Positions 16,566-55,548 of a stretch of 64,000 nucleotides of DNA are shown in pieces. Where the stretch lies: NCBI RefSeq assembly GCF_009914755.1, contig NC_060934.1. One strand, 5' to 3'. Made by a program: the position numbers and the translations under genes. Below the pieces are notes generated by a model that did not search any database, was not told the origin of the DNA, and worked only from the letters and a program-made list of their open reading frames with translations. This stretch comes from the human T2T-CHM13v2.0 reference genome, Homo sapiens. The stretch's first letter is position 1; each line of letters opens with the position of its first letter.

Positions 16566-18098
<1,533 letters not shown>

Positions 18099-19639
18099 AA
18101 TCTAGAATGTACTGACCACAGTCCAAAGTGCAGCATTGTCTTCTTGACTTAGCTATGTTGGAGGCTTTGTCTTTGTTCTACAGCCCTCCAATTTTGGCTC
18201 TGTTTGATTCCATTCGTATCAGATACTGGGTAAATTCCAAGTGATGGTTACTACATACTATGGGAAGTGTAGCTCATCCATGAGGCTAAAAAGCATATAG
18301 TAGAAAGCCACCTAGAGTTCTGGGATGTCCAAGGTTTATTTCTTAGGAATTAAAGAGGCTTTGGGATTTGATTTTTTTTAGTAGAGTTTTGTTTGTTGAA
18401 TGTTAGGTAAGGCACAGGACATAGCAACAGTGGCTGACAATCTGGACAGTACCAAGTTCCCATTATGTACTTGGGAGTTTGGTTTAACAAGCATTTGCAA
18501 AGGCCCTTCCATGTGATTGGGCTAGGCAGTGCAGGTGACACAAAGGTATTTCCTCACCTGCAAGGAGCTTATCATCTAGGAGTGTCTTTAGTGGAGAAGA
18601 AATGGGGTACAATAGCAAACATGATAACTCTATGACCTTGGAAAAACAGCAGAACTTCTTAAGTTTCTTCATCTGTAAATTGGGACTAATACCTGTCCTC
18701 CAGAGTTTTTGCTGGGATTAGAGATAATAGGTGAAATTAGGCTTCTTGGCTCACAATAGGTAATAAATAAGTGTGAGTTATCAATATGACTTAGATGGAA
18801 ATCAGTACAGCATTTTCCACCGACGTGAATTTTGGACGATTGGTCTCCCTTAGAGCATAATAAAGAGGAACCTGAACCTACTTCTTGGTCAGTCTTCACA
18901 TTTCAGAGCACTTTTAATTGAAAATACAAATACATCTGTGTTTCCTGGTCAGCTAATATAACATTGAGAGGAAATCTTCTAAAAGGCTGAGATTTGGGCA
19001 ATCTCAAGTTATAAATTTTGATCAAGGCTAATGAAGTAAATGGCTTTAAAAATGGTTTAATGGTTTAAAAATGAAGTGAAAATGGCTTTTAGGATCTCCT
19101 CACTAACAGTGACTGTACTCTGTCTCAAGTTCCTGGCATAGTTGCCCCATTGGGTATTTAATAAATATTTATTGGGTGCTTATTATGTGCTCAGCACTGT
19201 TCTAAGAATTTAATTTTTTTATTTTTCATAACAGGCATAGAAAGGTTAAGTAATACACCAATGGTCAACCCAGCTGACACTGAGGGAGCTGCATTCAAAT
19301 CCTGGCAGTATGGTCCTTGAATCCAGTTCTCAACCATGAAAATGGATTGCCCATTCCCACAGAGGTCTGCTCCCAGGTGTTGGCTGATGTTATATAAACT
19401 GCAAACCCTCATAAGCATGTTCACATTTTCCTAGGGGACCCTTGAGGATAAGCAAGGCACCAGAAAACAGTCTCATTGGTGAAACGATAGGATATGGGGT
19501 TGTTTAATAGGGCCAAGTTTTTCTCCAGAACACCTGGGGACTGCAAGTGGCAGCTGTTACCCTGGTGGTCTAAGAACTTTCAGGATCCTTCTTAGGCAAA
19601 ATAGTAGTCAATTTCAGGATTCCTAGGGAAGAGTCAGGG

Positions 19640-28298: not shown

Positions 28299-29411
28299 TA
28301 ATCTTATGAGATGATTAATCAGAAAGAGCCCTGGGATGAATACATTTGAAAAATGCTGATCTAGCTCTTCTCTCTTGTGGAAATCAATTGCAGCATTTTG
28401 GTAGGGGTGCTGGGGGCAGAATCGGATGACCTTTGCTATTTTGCTGGGTCTTCCCTGGGCCTAAGAAGGTTAACTTTAGAGGATGGCGGTAGAACTCTTT
28501 CTGGGACTTGACCTGCAAGGCAGCTTCCTAGAGGACTTGCTAAAGTCTGTGAAGTAAGTGCTATGTTCCCATCCATGTGCCTAGAAGCCATCACCTGGTG
28601 GTTTATCTTGGTTCCAAGCAGAGAAAAGTAGAGGTTTAAAATGGAACAGTGTGGGCAGCACATGCACATATAGACAAACTTATGCGCAGATGTAAATGCA
28701 TCTTTTCTTTGGGATGCAAAACACTGAAATAGTCTATAAGCTTTTTATTATGGGGGAAGCTGAGTTAAATTGTTAAAAAACCTAACCAAATTTGAACTGC
28801 TCTTCCATCAAAATCATATGTATATTTCATCAGATGTGTACTCTTCAACAAGACTGGAATGTATTTTGTTACTTCCTCTGGAAAGCAATTATTACCACAC
28901 CTTTATAATAGGCTATCTCCAACAACCCCTTTGTCACATTAATTCATCCCACAGCCTGTGATCAAGTAAAATAAAACATTTGGTTACAAAGCAGAGTTGT
29001 TACTTTTTTTTCAAAGTAATGTACAGCATAAATAAATGACAGGTTTGCAGATGTAGGTGATGCTGATAAATTCTTGGGCTTGGAAAATGTACCTTCTCAT
29101 GTGGTTGGAGGCAATCTAAACTAAACCTCTGCAGAGACTCCAAATCATATATAGACCCACTCATTTCTCCTAATAGCCAAGGTACAGGTTGTTGCCAGAA
29201 ATTTGGGCTCCTACGTAATAAGCATCTTTACTTCTTAATTTTAGCATGAGATAGTTGCAACTGTCAAGACACACTTTTGTAAAAATTCTAAGCTCCATGG
29301 GAATCCAGATGCCACTGTGAGAATGACAACAGCCAGCCCTGATATTGTCCCCCCACAGCCAAACAAGTAGATTTTTCTGATGTAAAGTTTCATAGAAAGA
29401 CAGAGTGCTAC

Positions 29412-29467
29412 AATCAAGACAATCTAGCATGTGGTACACATTATAATAGTGGGAAAGGGACCAGTTT
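29412..29467 (+). repeat. 56-bp direct repeat, copy 1 (copy 2 at 38381-38436)
   Basis: AATCAAGACAATCTAGCATGTGGTACACATTATAATAGTGGGAAAGGGACCAGTTT; 54/56 identical to copy 2. Confidence 0.95.
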
Positions 29468-29651
29468 GGGCTAGAGAGAGAGGGGACCCAATACTTTCTG
29501 AGCCTTATCTAAGGGCCAGGCAGGCATTCAGGCACTTGGCATATATTAACTGCTTTAATTCTCAGGGTAATCCTGTGGGCCTGGTGTTATTATCACTGTA
29601 GGATGTCCATTAAATCTGGAAGTCCAGGTATAAGGGACATCCTATAGTGAT

Positions 29652-32600
29652 CATATATATATATATTTTTATATACATTATATATTTATATATAAATAAA
29701 ATTTTTATTACATATATACATTATATACTTATACATAATTTTTTATTTTATTATATATTTATATATCTATATTATATACATTATATAAATTTATATTATA
29801 TATTTATATATGATATAATTATATATCATATATTTATATATTATATAATTATATATCATATATTTATATATGATATAATTATATATCATATATTTATATA
29901 TGATATAATTATATATCATATATTTATATATGATATAATTATATATCATATATTTATATATGATATAATTATATATCATATATTTATATATTATATAATT
30001 ATATATCATATATTTATATATTATATAATTATATATCATATATTTATATATTATATAATATATATGTATATAATATATAAATATATAATATATAAATATA
30101 TAATATATATTTATATATATTTTATATATATATACACATATATATTATATATGTGTATATTATATAATATACACATATATCATATAATTATATATTATAT
30201 AATATATATATTATATATGTATACATTATATAATATATAATGTATACATTATATATTATATAATGTATATATTATATATTATATATGATATAATATATAT
30301 TATATAATATATATGTATATATTATATATATAATATATCATATATAATATATCATATATATTATATATGATATAATATATCATATATAATATATATGATA
30401 TATTATATATGATATAATATATCATATATAATATATATGATATATTATATATGATATAATATATCATATATAATATATCATATATAATATATATGATATA
30501 ATATATCATATATAATATATCATATATAATATATATGATATAATATATCATATATAATATATATGATATATTATATATGATATAATATATCATATATAAT
30601 ATATATGATATATTATATATGATATAATATATCATATATAATATATATGATATATTATATATGATATAATATATCATATATAATATATATGATATATTAT
30701 ATATGATATAATATATCATATATATTATATATGATATATTATATATGATATAATATATCATATATATTATATATGATATATTATATATGATATAATATAT
30801 CATATATATTATATATGATATATTATATATGATATAATATATCATATATATTATATATGATATATTATATATGATATAATATATCATATATATTATATAT
30901 GATATATTATATATGATATAATATATCATATATATTATATATGATATATTATATATGATATAATATATCATATATATTATATATGATATATTATATATGA
31001 TAATATATCATATATATTATATATGATATATTATATATGATATAATATATCATATATATTATATATGATATATTATATATGATATAATATATCATATATA
31101 TTATATATGATATATTATATATGATATAATATATCATATATATTATATATGATATATTATATATGATATAATATATCATATATATTATATATGATATATT
31201 ATATATGATATAATATATCATATATATTATATATGATATATTATATATGATATAATATATCATATATATTATATATGATATATTATATATGATATAATAT
31301 ATCATATATATTATATATGATATATTATATATGATATAATATATCATATATATTATATATGATATATTATATATGATATAATATATCATATATATTATAT
31401 ATGATATATTATATATGATATAATATATCATATATATTATATATGATATATTATATATGATATAATATATCATATATATTATATATGATATATTATATAT
31501 GATATAATATATCATATATATTATATATGATATATTATATATGATATAATATATCATATATATTATATATGATATATTATATCATATATAATATATCATA
31601 TATATTATATATGATATATTATATCATATATAATATATCATATATATTATATATGATATATTATATCATATATAATATATCATATATATTATATATGATA
31701 TATTATATCATATATAATATATCATATATATTATATATGATATATTATATCATATATAATATATCATATATATTATATATGATATATTATATCATATATA
31801 ATATATCATATATATTATATATGATATATTATATATGATATAATATATCATATATATTATATATGATATATTATATATGATATAATATATCATATATATT
31901 ATATATGATATATTATATATGATATAATATATCATATATATTATATATGATATATTATATATGATATAATATATCATATATATGATATATTATATATGAT
32001 ATAATATATCATATATATGATATATTATATATGATATAATATATCATATATATGATATATTATATATGATATAATATATCATATATATGATATATTATAT
32101 ATGATATAATATATCATATATATGATATATTATATATGATATAATATATCATATATATGATATATTATATATGATATAATATATCATATATATGATATAT
32201 TATATATGATATAATATATCATATATATGATATATTATATATGATATAATATATCATATATCATATATATGATATATTATATATGATATAATATATCATA
32301 TATCATATATATGATATATTATATATGATATAATATATCATATATATGATATATGATATATTATATATGATATAATATATCATATATATGATATATGATA
32401 TATTATATATGATATAATATATCATATATCATATATATGATATATTATATATGATATAATATATCATATATCATATATATGATATATTATATATGATATA
32501 ATATATCATATATATTATATATGATATATTATATATGATATAATATATCATATATCATATATATGATATATTATATATGATATAATATATCATATATCAT

Positions 32601-35600
32601 ATATATGATATATTATATATGATATAATATATCATATATTATATATGATATATTATATATGATATAATATATCATATATCATATATATGATATATTATAT
32701 ATGATATAATATATCATATATATTAATATGATATATTATATATGATATAATATATCATATATATTATATATGATATATTATATATGATATAATATATCAT
32801 ATATATTATATATGATATATTATATATGATATAATATATCATATATCTTATATATGATATATATATATGATATAATATATCATATATATGATATATGATT
32901 ATTATATATGATATAATATATCATATATATATATATGATATATTATATATGATATAATATATCATATATCATATATATGATATTATATATGATATAAATA
33001 TCATATATATGATATATGATATATTATATATGATATAATATATTCATATATCATATATATGATATATTATATATGATATAATATATATATATATGATATA
33101 TGATATATTATATATGATATAATATATCATATATCATATATATGATATATATATATGATATAATATATCATATATATGATATATGATATATTTATATATG
33201 ATATAATATATCATATATATTATATATGATATATTATATATGATATAATATATCATATATATATATATGATATATTATATATGATATAATATATCATATA
33301 TATTATATATGATATAATATATCATATATATTATATATGATATATTATTATGATATATATATCATATATATTATATATGATATATTATATATGATATAAT
33401 ATATCATATATATTATATATGAATAATATATCATATATATTATATATGATATATTATATATGAATAATATATCATATATTATATATGAATATATTATATA
33501 TGATATAATATATCATATATATTATATATGATATATTATATATGATATAATATATCATATATATTATATATGATATATTATATATGATATAATATATCAT
33601 ATATATTATATATGATATATTATATATGATATAATATATCATATATATTATATATGATATATTATATATGATATAATATATCATATATATTATATATGAT
33701 ATATTATATATGATATAATATATCATATATATTATATATGATATATTATATATGATATAATATATCATATATATTATATATGATATATTATATATGATAT
33801 AATATATCATATATATTATATATGATATATTATATATGATATAATATATCATATATATTATATATGATATATTATATATGATATAATATATCATATATAT
33901 TATATATGATATAATATATATGATATAATATATCATATATATTATATATGATATATTATATATGATATAATATATCATATATATTATATATGATATATTA
34001 TATATGATATAATATATCATATATATTATATGATATATTATATATGATATAATATATCATATATATTATATATGATATATTATATATGATATAATATATC
34101 ATATATATTATATATGATATATTATATATGATATAATATATCATATATATTATATATGATATATTATATATGATATAATATATCATATATATTATATATG
34201 ATATATTATATATGATATAATATATCATATATATTATATATGATATATTATATATGATATAATATATCATATATATTATATATGATATATTATATATGAT
34301 ATAATATATCATATATATATATGATATATTATATCATATATAATATATCATATATAATATATATGATATATTATATCATATATAATATATCATATATAAT
34401 ATATGATATAATATATCATATATATTATATATGATATATTATATATGATATAATATATCATATATATTATATATATGATATATTATATGATATAATATAT
34501 CATATATATTATATATGATATATTATATATGATATAATATATCATATATATTATATATGATATATTATATATGATATAATATATCATATATATTATATAT
34601 GATATATTATATATGATATAATATATCATATATATTATATATATGATATATTATATATGATATAATATATCATATATATTATATATGATATATTATATAT
34701 GATATAATATATCATATATATTATATGATATATTATATATGATATAATATATCATATATATTATATATGATATATTATATATGATATAATATATCATATA
34801 TATTATATATGATATATTATATATGATATAATATATCATATATATTATATATGATATATTATATATGATATAATATATCATATATATTATATATGATATA
34901 TTATATATGATATAATATATCATATATATTATATATGATATATTATATATGATATAATATCATATATATTATATATGATATATTATATATGATATAATAT
35001 ATCATATATATTATATATGATATATTATATATGATATAATATATCATATATATTATATATGATATATTATATATGATATAATATATCATATATATTATAT
35101 ATGATATATTATATATGATATAATATATCATATATATTATATATGATATATTATATATGATATAATATATCATATATATTATATATGATATATTATATAT
35201 GATATAATATATCATATATATTATATATGATATATTATATATGATATAATATATCATATATATTATATATGATATATTATATATGATATAATATATCATA
35301 TATATTATATATGATATATTATATATGATATAATATATCATATATATGATATATTATATATGATAATATATCATATATATATTATATATGATATAATATA
35401 TATTATATCATATATATTATATATGATATATTATATGATATAATATATATATATTATATATGATATAATATATCATATATATTATATATGATATATTATA
35501 TATGATATAATATATCATATATATTATATATGATATATTATATATGATATAATATATCATATATATTATATATGATATATTATATATGATATAATATATC

Positions 35601-38318
35601 ATATATATTATATATGATATATTATATATGATATAATATATCATATATATTATATATGATATATTATATATGATATAATATATCATATATATTATATATG
35701 ATATATTATATATGATATAATATATCATATATATTATATGATATATTATATATGATATAATATATCATATATATTATATGATATATTATATATGATATAA
35801 TATATCATATATATTATATATGATATATTATATATGATATAATATATCATATATATTATATATGATATATTATATATGATATAATATATCATATATATTA
35901 TATATGATATATTATATATGATATAATATATCATATATATTATATATGATATATTATATATGATATAATATATCATATATATTATATATGATATATTATA
36001 TATGATATAATATATCATATATATTATATATGATATATTATATATGATATAATATATCATATATATTATATATGATATATTATATATGATATAATATATC
36101 ATATATATTATATATGATATATTATATATGATATAATATATCATATATATTATATATGATATATTATATATGATATAATATATCATATATATTATATATG
36201 ATATATTATATATGATATAATATATCATATATATTATATATGATATATTATATATGATATAATATATCATATATATTATATATGATATATTATATATGAT
36301 ATAATATATCATATATATTATATATGATATATTATATATGATATAATATATCATATATATTATATATGATATATTATATATGATATAATATATCATATAT
36401 ATTATATATGATATATTATATATGATATAATATATCATATATATTATATATGATATATTATATATGATATAATATATCATATATATTATATATGATATAT
36501 TATATATGATATAATATATCATATATATTATATATGATATATTATATATGATATAATATATCATATATATTATATATGATATATTATATATGATATAATA
36601 TATCATATATATTATATATGATATATTATATATGATATAATATATCATATATATTATATATGATATATTATATATGATATAATATATCATATATATTATA
36701 TATGATATATTATATATGATATAATATATCATATATATTATATATGATATATTATATATGATATAATATATCATATATATTATATATGATATATTATATA
36801 TGATATAATATATCATATATATTATATATGATATATTATATATGATATAATATATCATATATATTATATATGATATATTATATATGATTATAATATATCA
36901 TATATATTATATATGATATATTATATATGATATAATATATCATATATATTATATATGATATATTATATATGATATAATATATCAATATATTATATATGAT
37001 ATATTATATATGATATAATATATCATATATATTATATATGAATATATTATATATGATATAATATATCATATATATTATATATGATATAATTATATATGAT
37101 ATAATATATCATATATATTATATATGATATATTATATATGATATAATATATCATATATATTATATATGATATATTATATATGATATAATATATCATATAT
37201 ATATATATGATATATTATATATGATATAATATCATATATATTATATATGATATTAATATGATATAATATATCAATATATATGATATATATATTATCATGA
37301 TATAATCTTATATATGATTAATATATCATATATATATATATGATATATTAATATGATATAATATATCATAATATATTAATATATGATATATTATATATGA
37401 TATAATTATTAATATATTATATATGATATTATTATAATGATATAATATATCATATATATTATATATGATATATTATAATATGATATAATATATCATATAT
37501 ATTATATATGATATATTATATATGATATAATATATCATATATATTATATATGAATATTATATATGATATAATATATCATATATATTATAATGATATATTA
37601 TTATGATATAATATATCATATATATTATATTATGATATATTATATAATGATATAATATATCATATATATTATATATGATATATTATATATGATATAATAT
37701 ATCATATATATTATATATGATATATTATATATGATATAATATATCATATATATTATATATGATATATTATATATGATATAATATATCATATATATTATAT
37801 ATGATATATTATATATGATATAATATATCATATATATTATATATAATATTATATATGATATACATATTATATATGTATATATTATATATGATATAATATA
37901 TATGTATATATTATATATGTATATATTTATATACATATATGTATATATTATGTATATATTTATATACATATATTATATATAATATATAATATATACGTAT
38001 ATAATATATAATACACTATATAATATATACGTATATTATATATATTAGATATAATATATACGTATATAATATATAATACACTATATAATATATACGTATA
38101 TAATACATATATACTATATAATATATATGTATATAATACATATATACTATATAATATATATGTATATAATACATATATACTATATAATATATACGTATAT
38201 AATACATGTATTATATACGTATATAATATATATGTATACAATATATACGTATATAATATATATGTATATATTATATAAATTATATATTATATATATGTAT
38301 TATATAAATTATATATTT
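29652..38318. repeat. ~8.7-kb AT-rich minisatellite: 30-bp proximal block, ~7.5 kb of 42-bp units, TACGTA-containing distal block (FRA10B-like)
   Basis: Main unit TATGATATATTATATATGATATAATATATCATATATATTATA, seen as a 14-aa period in the ORF track. 30-bp unit at ~29801-30060, 35-bp variant at ~31980-32250, seven TACGTA sites at 37994-38251. Confidence 0.98.
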
Positions 38319-38380
38319 TTTCACACTTTGAAGACATCTTTAATGACTATACAGCCCTCTCTGTCTAAGCATATGTATAT

Positions 38381-38436
38381 AATCAAGACAATCTAGCATG
38401 TGATATACATTATAATAGTGGGAAAGGGACCAGTTT
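38381..38436 (+). repeat. 56-bp direct repeat, copy 2, enclosed by a 35-bp inverted repeat (38319-38353 / 38448-38482)
   Basis: Direct comparison of the sequences; the IR arms are 31/35 complementary. Confidence 0.93.
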
Positions 38437-40008
38437 CCCACTATATATGTATAGTCATGAAGGATGTATTCAAAATGTGAAATAATAAAAATATTTCCCC
38501 TCTATTTTCTAAGTTGATGGAACCCTGCATTTGTAGATGGGTAAGATGAAGTTCAGCCAGTAATATGGTCACTGGGAATTGGACCTCAACCTGTCTGATT
38601 TCAAAGACCAGGTTTTCTCACGGACACCTCGCAGCTATGACCAGGAGTTTGACTTGCTTTGCAGGGAGGGAGGGCTAGAAAGAGGTCAGAGGTTTGCAGG
38701 TGAAACCTGACCACAGCAGGAATCACTGCAGGCATATAGGCTGTTTGGGAATTGAGCTATCTGCACAATCAGCAGGACTGGCCTTTTAGAGGAGGGTCAG
38801 CTGGGCCTCCAGGCACAAAGTGATGACCCTCTCAAGAAAAGTGAGCAGAATGAGTAAGTGGATGGCAAGTTGGACTTAAGAGTAAAGGTGAGAGGACGTG
38901 GGCTGCCTTCCACCCTGGAAAAAGAAAAAAAAAAAAGGAGTTGCAGGGCTTACCCCAAATCCCTTTAGAGAGTGCTCTGATTGGAATAGAAAAACAAAAT
39001 TTTAAGATCCCCTGCAAGCACCCAAAAAACTCCATTCAGATTTAGAACTCGTAATTCACCGGATGTTTGCTAGGTTGGACCTAGGGCATGAGCCTTAGCT
39101 ATCATTTTCTGCTTGCAGTATCTTATTTTCCACAACTCTCTTAGTTTTGTGGTTTTCAAAATCCCTACCACTGCTTTTGTTTGGAAATTAGTGAAGAGAA
39201 TCTGAAGGCTTTTCTCTCCTGGAGGCCTAGCTAGAATTCCAAATAAGCTGCTCCCTCCGTGAGGCTCAGGCGCAAGCCAGAGGCAAGTGCCAAACCAATA
39301 GCGCCTTGGGGCCTGGGCCCAGGAAGTTCTGTGCCATGCAAGAAGCCCTGCCTTTGTCAAGGAAAAGAAAAATGAGGGAGGCCCATTTGGCCTTTTTCTA
39401 TCCTCATGTAAAGGAGGATTTTGTGCTTAGAGATGATAACTTATGATGTGCCAGATAAAGTGATCATTGGACAGAGCGGCTAAGCTCTCAGTTTTACATT
39501 GATGTTGAGGGAGATGTTACATACAGTATATAATTGTATAGTTAGTTCTCCAGTAGCCTGCTTATTGTCTTCTTCACTGAGCTCTAAAGACCATGAGGAC
39601 AGGTTCTACATCTGCTTCGTTCATTGCTATCTGTACCCTCAGGTTCTAGCACTGAGTACATGAGAGATATTTAATGGGGACTCATGAATGAACGAGCATC
39701 AGGAATGGGTAGTTATGAGTTGTGCACTGAGCACAGGCCATGGGATAGCCCAGAGTCTGTCTCCATCACAGGATAGCCAAGGCAAGGTGGCTTTTAGATG
39801 TGTCACATGAATGAGAAAAGGAGGCAGCAAGTGTGGGAAGGAGTGCAGAAGAGAGGGAGATCACTGAGGCCTGGGATAGTCAGGGAAGGCTTGACAGCAA
39901 AGACAAGCTCAAAAATGCCCTCAAAGTTGGGTTAGGAGAGGCCACACCTGGGGCACCTGATAGCATGAGGAAAGGCAAGCTGAAGAAGATGAGAAAAGTA
40001 CATGGTGG

Positions 40009-52510: not shown

Positions 52511-52810
<300 letters not shown>

Positions 52811-52820
52811 GTTCTGTTGA

Positions 52821-53163
<343 letters not shown>

Positions 53164-55464: not shown

Positions 55465-55548
55465 CTTGGTGGTAAGGCTACTAAAGATTGATTAGGAGCC
55501 ACATTTAAATGTGGCTCCTAATCAATCTTTAGTAGCCTTACCACCAAG
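55465..55548. repeat. Perfect 84-bp palindrome, no spacer
   Basis: CTTGGTGGTAAGGCTACTAAAGATTGATTAGGAGCCACATTT | AAATGTGGCTCCTAATCAATCTTTAGTAGCCTTACCACCAAG; 42/42 complementary. Confidence 0.99.

What the first reader, a model, noticed from the sequence alone, without database searches (positions are those of the whole stretch)
29412..38482. Both array edges are fold-backs, and the right edge is a patchwork of templated flank copies
Left edge: ATCACTGTAGGATGTCC (29592-29608) and GGACATCCTATAGTGAT (29635-29651) form a 16/17 inverted repeat ending exactly where the AT tract starts. Right edge, in order: 38319-38353 is the reverse complement of 38448-38482 (31/35). 38354-38370 resembles the reverse complement of 29470-29485. 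38381-38436 is a direct copy of 29412-29467 (54/56). TTTCCCACTAT (38434-38444) folds back on ATAGTGGGAAA (38415-38425). Every piece derives from DNA within ~250 bp of a putative pre-array junction. Inference: the array was seeded inside one complex template-switching insertion (FoSTeS/MMBIR or Pol theta-type snap-back synthesis), a fossil of how the minisatellite originated.
Basis: partly seen in the sequence, partly recalled or inferred. Interest (0 to 1): 0.72.

Follow-up and report, generated by a model that had tools for sequence, protein, structure and literature searches.

The report
Fragile site born inside dead transposon
The hairpins and copied pieces at both edges of this 8.7-kb AT-rich repeat are real; the repeat is very likely the known fragile site FRA10B, it sits between the two halves of a small ancient DNA transposon, and the edge pieces are likely scars of DNA repair that copied nearby sequence, probably in more than one round.

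Summary
The array (8,667 bp, 92.6% AT, 42-bp unit found only here in the genome) is very likely FRA10B. If so, this allele is above the reported 5-kb fragility threshold.

The left arm is the terminal repeat of a ~120-bp TA-flanked DNA-transposon relic. Its other half lies right of the array (38443-38527): joined in silico, the halves fill a family profile end to end (33.9 bits; 0 of 3000 random joins reach it). The element itself splits a MIR-like repeat.

The partner arms are not transposon features. None of 24 family loci has such a hairpin, and the left copy runs past the target site into flank. They are local inverted copies, 12-15% diverged, with changes on both arms.

The 90-bp patch holding the 59-bp duplication sits in the apex of the right hairpin and is only 4-5% diverged. 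No primate orthologues could be reached.

The parts
29409..29467 (+). Unique left flank, presumed template of the 59-bp direct copy (29446-29456 is also the sequence repeated in the 11-bp fold-back)
29469..29485 (+). Possible template of the weak inverted piece at 38354-38370
   Evidence: 12/13 core; 170 of 1500 null regions match as well
29550..29596 (+). Left part of a split dispersed repeat (MIR-like; name recalled), profile positions 23-68
29597..29598 (+). Left target-site dinucleotide (reads TG; TA in the fold-back copy at 29645-29646 and in most family copies)
29599..29621 (+). Left terminal inverted repeat of a ~120-bp Tc1/mariner-type non-autonomous element; with 29588-29598 it forms arm 1 of the left hairpin
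   Evidence: 20/25 to the family profile consensus
29623..29655 (-). Left fold-back: inverted copy of 29588-29620 (TIR, target site and 9 bp of flank), 28/33, 2-nt loop
29652..38318 (+). AT-rich minisatellite, 8,667 bp, 92.6% AT, 42-bp self-complementary core unit (103 exact copies), irregular proximal repeats, 7 TACGTA sites in distal repeats; very likely FRA10B
   Evidence: passages
38314..38353 (-). Right fold-back: inverted copy of element interior 38448-38487, 35/40
38354..38443 (+). 90-bp templated patch in the apex of the right hairpin: weak inverted piece (38354-38370), 9-bp repeat of the apex (38371-38379 = 38445-38453), 59-bp direct copy (38378-38436), 11-bp fold-back (38434-38444, sharing TTT with the end of the copy)
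38443..38527 (+). Right two-thirds of the transposon relic (interior and right TIR), profile positions 36-120
   Evidence: 61/86 to the consensus
38528..38529 (+). Right target-site dinucleotide (reads CA)
   Evidence: best MIR-like join is 29596|38528
38530..38556 (+). Right part of the split MIR-like repeat, profile positions ~73-102

Best explanation
This 8.7-kb AT-rich array, very likely FRA10B, lies between the two halves of a ~120-bp DNA-transposon relic, and its edge hairpins and duplications are likely scars of at least two rounds of templated break repair. Inferred order: (1) a Tc1/mariner-type miniature element inserted at a TA site in a MIR-like repeat and decayed. (2) A break or stalled fork in its AT-rich interior was repaired by fold-back synthesis on both ends, copying 33 bp leftward through the TIR into flank and 40 bp of interior, with an AT-rich filler between and about 10 bp lost; that filler seeded the array. 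(3) Later the ATAT apex of the right palindrome broke, and a 90-bp patch was stitched from 29409-29485 by template switching and snap-back (polymerase-theta-like). (4) The self-complementary AT units expanded by slippage or recombination, here to 8.7 kb. Shown: the repeats, the split element, the split host repeat, the absence of such hairpins in other family copies. Inferred: the order, the ages, the enzyme, and that the AT seed was made in step 2.
For: TIR family is real: 13 hits vs 0 control, 12 vs 0. A profile from 7 TIR-ascertained copies scores the in-silico join at 33.9 bits over positions 4-120, against 16.7 and 13.0 for the halves. Nulls: 0 of 3000 random right partners and 3 of 3000 shuffled right halves reach 33.9. 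The flanks join into one MIR-like hit of 19.0 bits, halves 4.5 and 2.3; 12 and 1 of 3000 null joins reach it, and 11 of those 13 use a piece that is itself such a repeat. 0 of 24 family loci have a hairpin of score >=18; the window's edges score 18 and 25. Both arms of each IR share private changes against the family, and the 10 arm differences fall on both sides (4 on originals, 5 on copies, 1 unresolved; read by eye from the alignment), as expected of decay after copying. Removing 38354-38443 leaves one continuous 40-bp stem with an ATAT apex, a self-priming end; the junction at 38353/38354 shows no microhomology. Jukes-Cantor divergence 0.15 for the IRs vs 0.04-0.05 for the direct copy. FRA10B: ~42-bp, 91% AT unit at 10q25.2, fragile above 5 kb (PMC9714581), at GRCh38 chr10:111-112 Mb (PMC12324623); the exact 84-bp dimer occurs 84 times in the genome, all here. 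Polymerase theta mixes snap-back, in-trans and untemplated synthesis in one product (PMC4912351).
Against: The age difference is not significant (p 0.067 and 0.14; exact intervals 6.8-23.8% vs 0.4-12.3%). The patch's templates lie 140-210 bp left of the original break, which suits one event better than a second break on the far side of an array. A 12-mer carrying both variant bases of the right-hand copy occurs three times at the array's proximal end (29671, 29714, 29774), which could tie seed and patch together. The 7 profile members were picked by eye from 21 TIR loci as one subfamily resembling the window, and the join point was the best of 5 (25.4-33.9 bits), so the null values are optimistic; one random join reached 31.6. 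With composition correction the right half alone is not significant (2.7 bits, E 3.1). Neither target site reads TA in place. No outgroup sequence was seen. FRA10B identity rests on unit length, composition and megabase position, not on a sequence comparison.
Confidence: 0.5

Rival explanations
1. One complex template-switching event inside the transposon relic made both fold-backs, the AT seed and the 90-bp patch together.
For: All templates lie within about 210 bp left and 45 bp right of the reconstructed break. Age heterogeneity is not significant. The shared 12-mer at the proximal array end. Multi-switch products are documented in vitro (PMC4912351).
Against: Point estimates differ three- to four-fold. 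Arm differences fall on both arms, so they are not copying errors at birth. The patch lifts out cleanly from the apex of the right palindrome, and the 40-bp copy has no priming microhomology once the patch is in place.
Confidence: 0.25
2. The array came first: TA slippage in the element's AT-rich interior made an unstable tract, and its own breakage left the fold-backs and the patch as later scars. They would then record fragility, not origin.
For: Family copies have AT-rich interiors at this position. The 42-bp unit is self-complementary. FRA10B alleles are tied to somatic 10q deletions (passages). Minisatellites often arise inside transposons (PMC9659126).
Against: None of the 7-10 aligned full copies shows a TA expansion. 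Both old fold-backs start at the reconstructed break and have similar divergence (5/33, 5/40), which fits one event.
Confidence: 0.2
3. The inverted repeats are simply built-in transposon structure (terminal repeats, or nested copies of the element), with no repair synthesis needed.
For: Arm 1 on the left is a true TIR, and the right IR is element sequence.
Against: The left copy includes the target site and 9 bp of host flank and shares private substitutions with arm 1. 0 of 24 family loci show such hairpins. The 59-bp copy is unique flank.
Confidence: 0.04

Closest known systems
FRA10B rare fragile site minisatellite, 10q25.2 (Hewett 1998, not read; known here from passages of PMC9714581, PMC8744678, PMC12324623)
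   Same: 42-bp AT-rich unit (92.9% AT here, 91% reported), mixed unit lengths, position on 10q, size above the 5-kb threshold. Distal TACGTA-bearing repeats match my recollection of the original description (recalled, no call).
   Different: The passages seen describe the repeat and its fragility, not its flanks. No published unit sequence or exact coordinate was available for comparison. Fragility of this allele was not tested.
Non-autonomous Tc1/mariner elements of the human genome (Repbase lists EutTc1-N1 and MARNA under Mariner/Tc1 and DNA1_Mam as unclassified, PMC5753468 passages; which name fits is not determined)
   Same: ~120 bp, ~25-bp terminal inverted repeats, TA next to the ends, dispersed copies 75-78% identical to the profile consensus (L031, L036).
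   Different: This copy is split by 8.8 kb, has lost about 10 bp, and carries inverted copies of its TIR and interior that other copies lack.
Polymerase theta / synthesis-dependent MMEJ templated insertions and replication template switching (PMC4912351 passages; PMC2943611 and PMC5728401 seen as search listings only; FoSTeS/MMBIR recalled)
   Same: Short direct and inverted copies of break-flanking DNA, a snap-back with 3-bp priming, AT-rich filler.
   Different: A fixed germline fossil, likely layered; pieces of 33-59 bp; some junctions lack microhomology; the enzyme cannot be assigned.
Tandem repeats born inside transposons (about 7276 human minisatellites; miDNA4 satellite inside a Tc1/mariner MITE of Xenopus tropicalis; PMC9659126 passages)
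   Same: An array nested within a transposon copy.
   Different: Here the unit is not a recognisable piece of the element; the array fills a repair junction bounded by fold-backs and is confined to one locus.

Membership tests
FRA10B | ~42-bp AT-rich (about 91%) unit | tested here: met
   42-bp period, 103 exact units, 92.9% AT; reported values
FRA10B | Location at 10q25.2 | tested here: inconclusive
   T2T chr10:112.13 Mb vs reported GRCh38 chr10:111-112 Mb; the unit dimer is found nowhere else; no exact coordinate or assembly conversion available
FRA10B | Repeat longer than 5 kb in expressing alleles | tested here: met
   8,667 bp in this assembly; threshold; assembly length not independently checked
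FRA10B | Identity to the published allele and flank sequence | not testable with these tools
   Hewett 1998 and Loh 2018/2020 are not held
FRA10B | BrdU- or distamycin-inducible gap on metaphase chromosomes | not testable with these tools
   needs cytogenetics
Tc1/mariner non-autonomous element (MITE) | Terminal inverted repeats at both ends | tested here: met
   29599-29621 and the end at 38527 match profile positions 4 and 120; the join also hits the profile on the reverse strand
Tc1/mariner non-autonomous element (MITE) | Dispersed copies of similar length | tested here: met
   21 distinct TIR loci, 7 aligned full length, 3 more from an interior motif
Tc1/mariner non-autonomous element (MITE) | TA target-site duplication | tested here: inconclusive
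   TG left, CA right, TA only in the fold-back copy; each is one transition from TA; TA precedes the TIR in most hits, but that pattern included TA
Tc1/mariner non-autonomous element (MITE) | Match to a named curated consensus or an autonomous partner | not testable with these tools
   no Dfam or Repbase library on hand
MIR SINE (host repeat) | Match to a dispersed-repeat profile continuous across the insertion | tested here: met
   19.0 bits over positions 23-102 of a 25-copy profile built without the junction; the name MIR is recalled
Polymerase-theta-type templated insertion | Insert pieces copied from DNA flanking the break | tested here: met
Polymerase-theta-type templated insertion | Microhomology at switch points | tested here: inconclusive
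   TTT at 38434-38436 and TA-type overlaps at 38378 and 38442-38444 are present; none at 38353/38354 or at the left apex
Polymerase-theta-type templated insertion | Dependence on POLQ | not testable with these tools
   ancient fixed event

The most novel reading that the evidence does not exclude
FRA10B is a readable birth record: a repair event inside a dead DNA transposon wrote two fold-backs and an AT seed in an early anthropoid, a second break at the new palindrome's tip added the patch, and the seed grew into a medically relevant fragile site, of which the T2T reference carries a complete fragile-size allele. Fold-back-bounded AT filler may be a general route by which AT-rich minisatellites arise.
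Probability: 0.35. Interest if true: 0.72.

Novelty: new variant of a known kind. Interest (0 to 1): 0.5.

Why it matters
How GC-poor minisatellites begin is poorly documented because expansion usually erases the seed. Here the flanks keep the junction, and the model gives branch-by-branch predictions for existing primate assemblies. FRA10B alleles are linked to mosaic 10q-terminal deletions in blood and to false-positive prenatal screens (passages). A fully resolved 8.7-kb allele with hairpins at both edges is a ready substrate for replication-stalling and breakage assays, and users of this reference should know that it likely carries an expanded allele.

Tried and rejected
BLAST-type genome searches with both flanks found only self and the local repeats; the element is too short and old for that search.

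The first motif search gave 10 hits vs 2 control; only L009 and L014 were clear family members.

The interior motif gave 7 hits vs 1 control. One was a locus already held, 3 were new members, and 3 (L032, L034, L035) lacked a TIR and were dropped.

The 10-copy profile run over the raw window with composition correction ranked the left TIR first (E 0.012) but left the right half at E 3.1. Without the correction a 32-bit hit runs from the TIR into the AT array; I take that as a composition artefact.

Testing whether the two array ends are copies of each other was uninformative: direct 5 of 300 and inverted 2 of 300 shuffles reached the score, with a shuffle that destroys TA runs.

I rejected reading the left hairpin as a 46-bp mini-element with its own two TIRs, because the symmetry continues 9 bp beyond the target site and the true right TIR lies at 38527.

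Literature: the FRA10B search (40 papers, 39 listed), FRA10B+VNTR, rs118137427, and searches showed no title or abstract on the origin or flanks of FRA10B. One search matched 634 papers and listed 15, none with the term FRA10B. The primary papers were not held, and supplements were closed.
Full report
1. Observation. All coordinates check out. Both long inverted repeats extend further than reported: 33-bp arms with a 2-nt loop on the left (28/33) and 40-bp arms on the right (35/40). The direct copy is 56/59. Both hairpins fold far below shuffles (z -7.4 and -7.7, 0 of 200 each), and about 55 kb of the rest of the window holds just one hairpin of comparable score. The 17-bp piece is the exception: 170 of 1500 random regions of equal length match it as well, and 15 of 1500 if only 60 bp are allowed.

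2. The array. It spans 29652-38318 (8,667 bp, 92.6% AT), with a 42-bp unit present 103 times exactly, irregular proximal repeats and seven TACGTA sites distally. The unit contains its own perfect hairpins. The exact dimer occurs 84 times in the genome, all at this locus. Review passages describe FRA10B at 10q25.2 as a ~42-bp, 91% AT minisatellite that is fragile above 5 kb (PMC9714581; PMC8744678), and a preprint passage places FRA10B expansions at GRCh38 chr10:111-112 Mb (PMC12324623). I put the identity at about 0.9.

3. A transposon relic around the array. A search with the left arm gave 10 hits vs 2 control, one of them a complete ~124-bp element with TA at both ends. Motifs from it gave 13 vs 0 and 12 vs 0 hits, 21 distinct loci. 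Seven of the 21, chosen by eye, share one interior; three more came from an interior motif. A profile of the seven scores the window's left part at 16.7 bits, the right part at 13.0, and the join 29621|38443 at 33.9 bits across positions 4-120, with about 10 positions missing at the join; five join points gave 25.4-33.9. 0 of 3000 random partners (maximum 31.6) and 3 of 3000 shuffled right halves reach 33.9; 0 of 3000 random pieces alone reach 13. The subfamily and join were chosen with the window in view, and these scores omit the composition correction; with it the right half alone is not significant. An independent check agrees: a 25-copy profile of a dispersed repeat (MIR by my recollection), built without this region, gives 19.0 bits for 29596|38528 against 4.5 and 2.3 for the halves. 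12 and 1 of 3000 null joins reach 19.0, and 11 of these 13 use pieces that are themselves such repeats. The target site reads TG, CA and, in the copy, TA. The family name is not determined; PMC5753468 (passages) lists candidates only.

4. The partner arms are later copies. Of 24 family loci scanned (duplicates and three non-members dropped; several are partial or of other subfamilies) none has a hairpin scoring 18 or more, the best being 13. The left copy includes the target site and 9 bp of host flank. Both arms of each hairpin share changes that the family mostly lacks. Read by eye from the alignment, the ten arm differences fall four on the original arms, five on the copies, and one unresolved. 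That is decay after duplication, not error during copying.

5. One event or more. Pooled IR divergence is 10/73 (corrected 0.15); the direct copy differs at 2/56 or 3/59 (0.04-0.05), the 11-bp fold-back at 0/11. By recalled primate neutral divergences this would put the fold-backs near or before the New World monkey split and the patch among catarrhines or apes, but the intervals overlap (Fisher p 0.067 and 0.14). Removing 38354-38443 restores a continuous 40-bp stem with an ATAT apex, which could prime its own fold-back; with the patch in place that copy has no priming homology. Against staging: the patch's templates lie 140-210 bp left of the first break, and a 12-mer with both variant bases of the right-hand copy recurs three times at the array's proximal end and nowhere in the window outside the locus, which may be chance in AT-rich DNA. 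I give staged repair 0.5, a single event 0.25, array-first 0.2, pure transposon structure 0.04.

6. Mechanism. Polymerase theta switches among snap-back, in-trans and untemplated synthesis within one product and favours dA when untemplated (PMC4912351, passages). The patch, with its TTT-primed snap-back, fits this; replication template switching (recalled) fits as well, and the enzyme cannot be assigned. Minisatellites inside transposons are common, about 7276 in humans, and a satellite inside a Tc1/mariner MITE is known in Xenopus (PMC9659126, passages).

7. Novelty. The locus and each mechanism are known. The nested anatomy and staged history did not appear in the listings, or in the FRA10B passages read. 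That library lacks most subscription papers, and a RepeatMasker track may already label the element's halves. Clinical links come from passages only: mosaic 10q deletions and prenatal false positives and a possible link in CLL. No primate sequence could be reached, so the decisive test remains open. Verdict: a real feature, a new variant of a known kind, interest 0.5.

Noticed in passing
window 55465-55548: A perfect 84-bp palindrome (42-bp arms, no loop, no mismatch) in unmasked sequence 17 kb right of the array; no other BLAST match in the genome. Likely a young fold-back or homogenised hairpin.
   Followed up: partly
window 29652-38318: If this is FRA10B, the reference allele (8.67 kb) exceeds the reported 5-kb threshold for fragile-site expression.
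   Followed up: partly
window 31540-31790, 31960-32700, 34300-34430: Blocks of variant units inside the array (runs with a C for G change, 35-bp and 49-bp variants), recording local amplification steps.
   Followed up: no
window 29671, 29714, 29774 and 38403: The 12-mer ATATACATTATA occurs only in the proximal repeats and in the right-hand 59-bp copy (one reverse copy at 30259), where it carries both of the 56-bp segment's differences from the left copy.
   Followed up: partly
L017-L048 (e.g. L018, L020, L025, L026, L040; L021, L023): The same terminal repeat heads at least two further interior types besides the ~120-bp one; L021 and L023 are interrupted by Alu-like inserts.
   Followed up: no
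window 16652-18104; 52522-53127: An L1-like fragment (recalled resemblance) and two tandem Alu-like copies ending in a 26-nt A tail. Ordinary.
   Followed up: no
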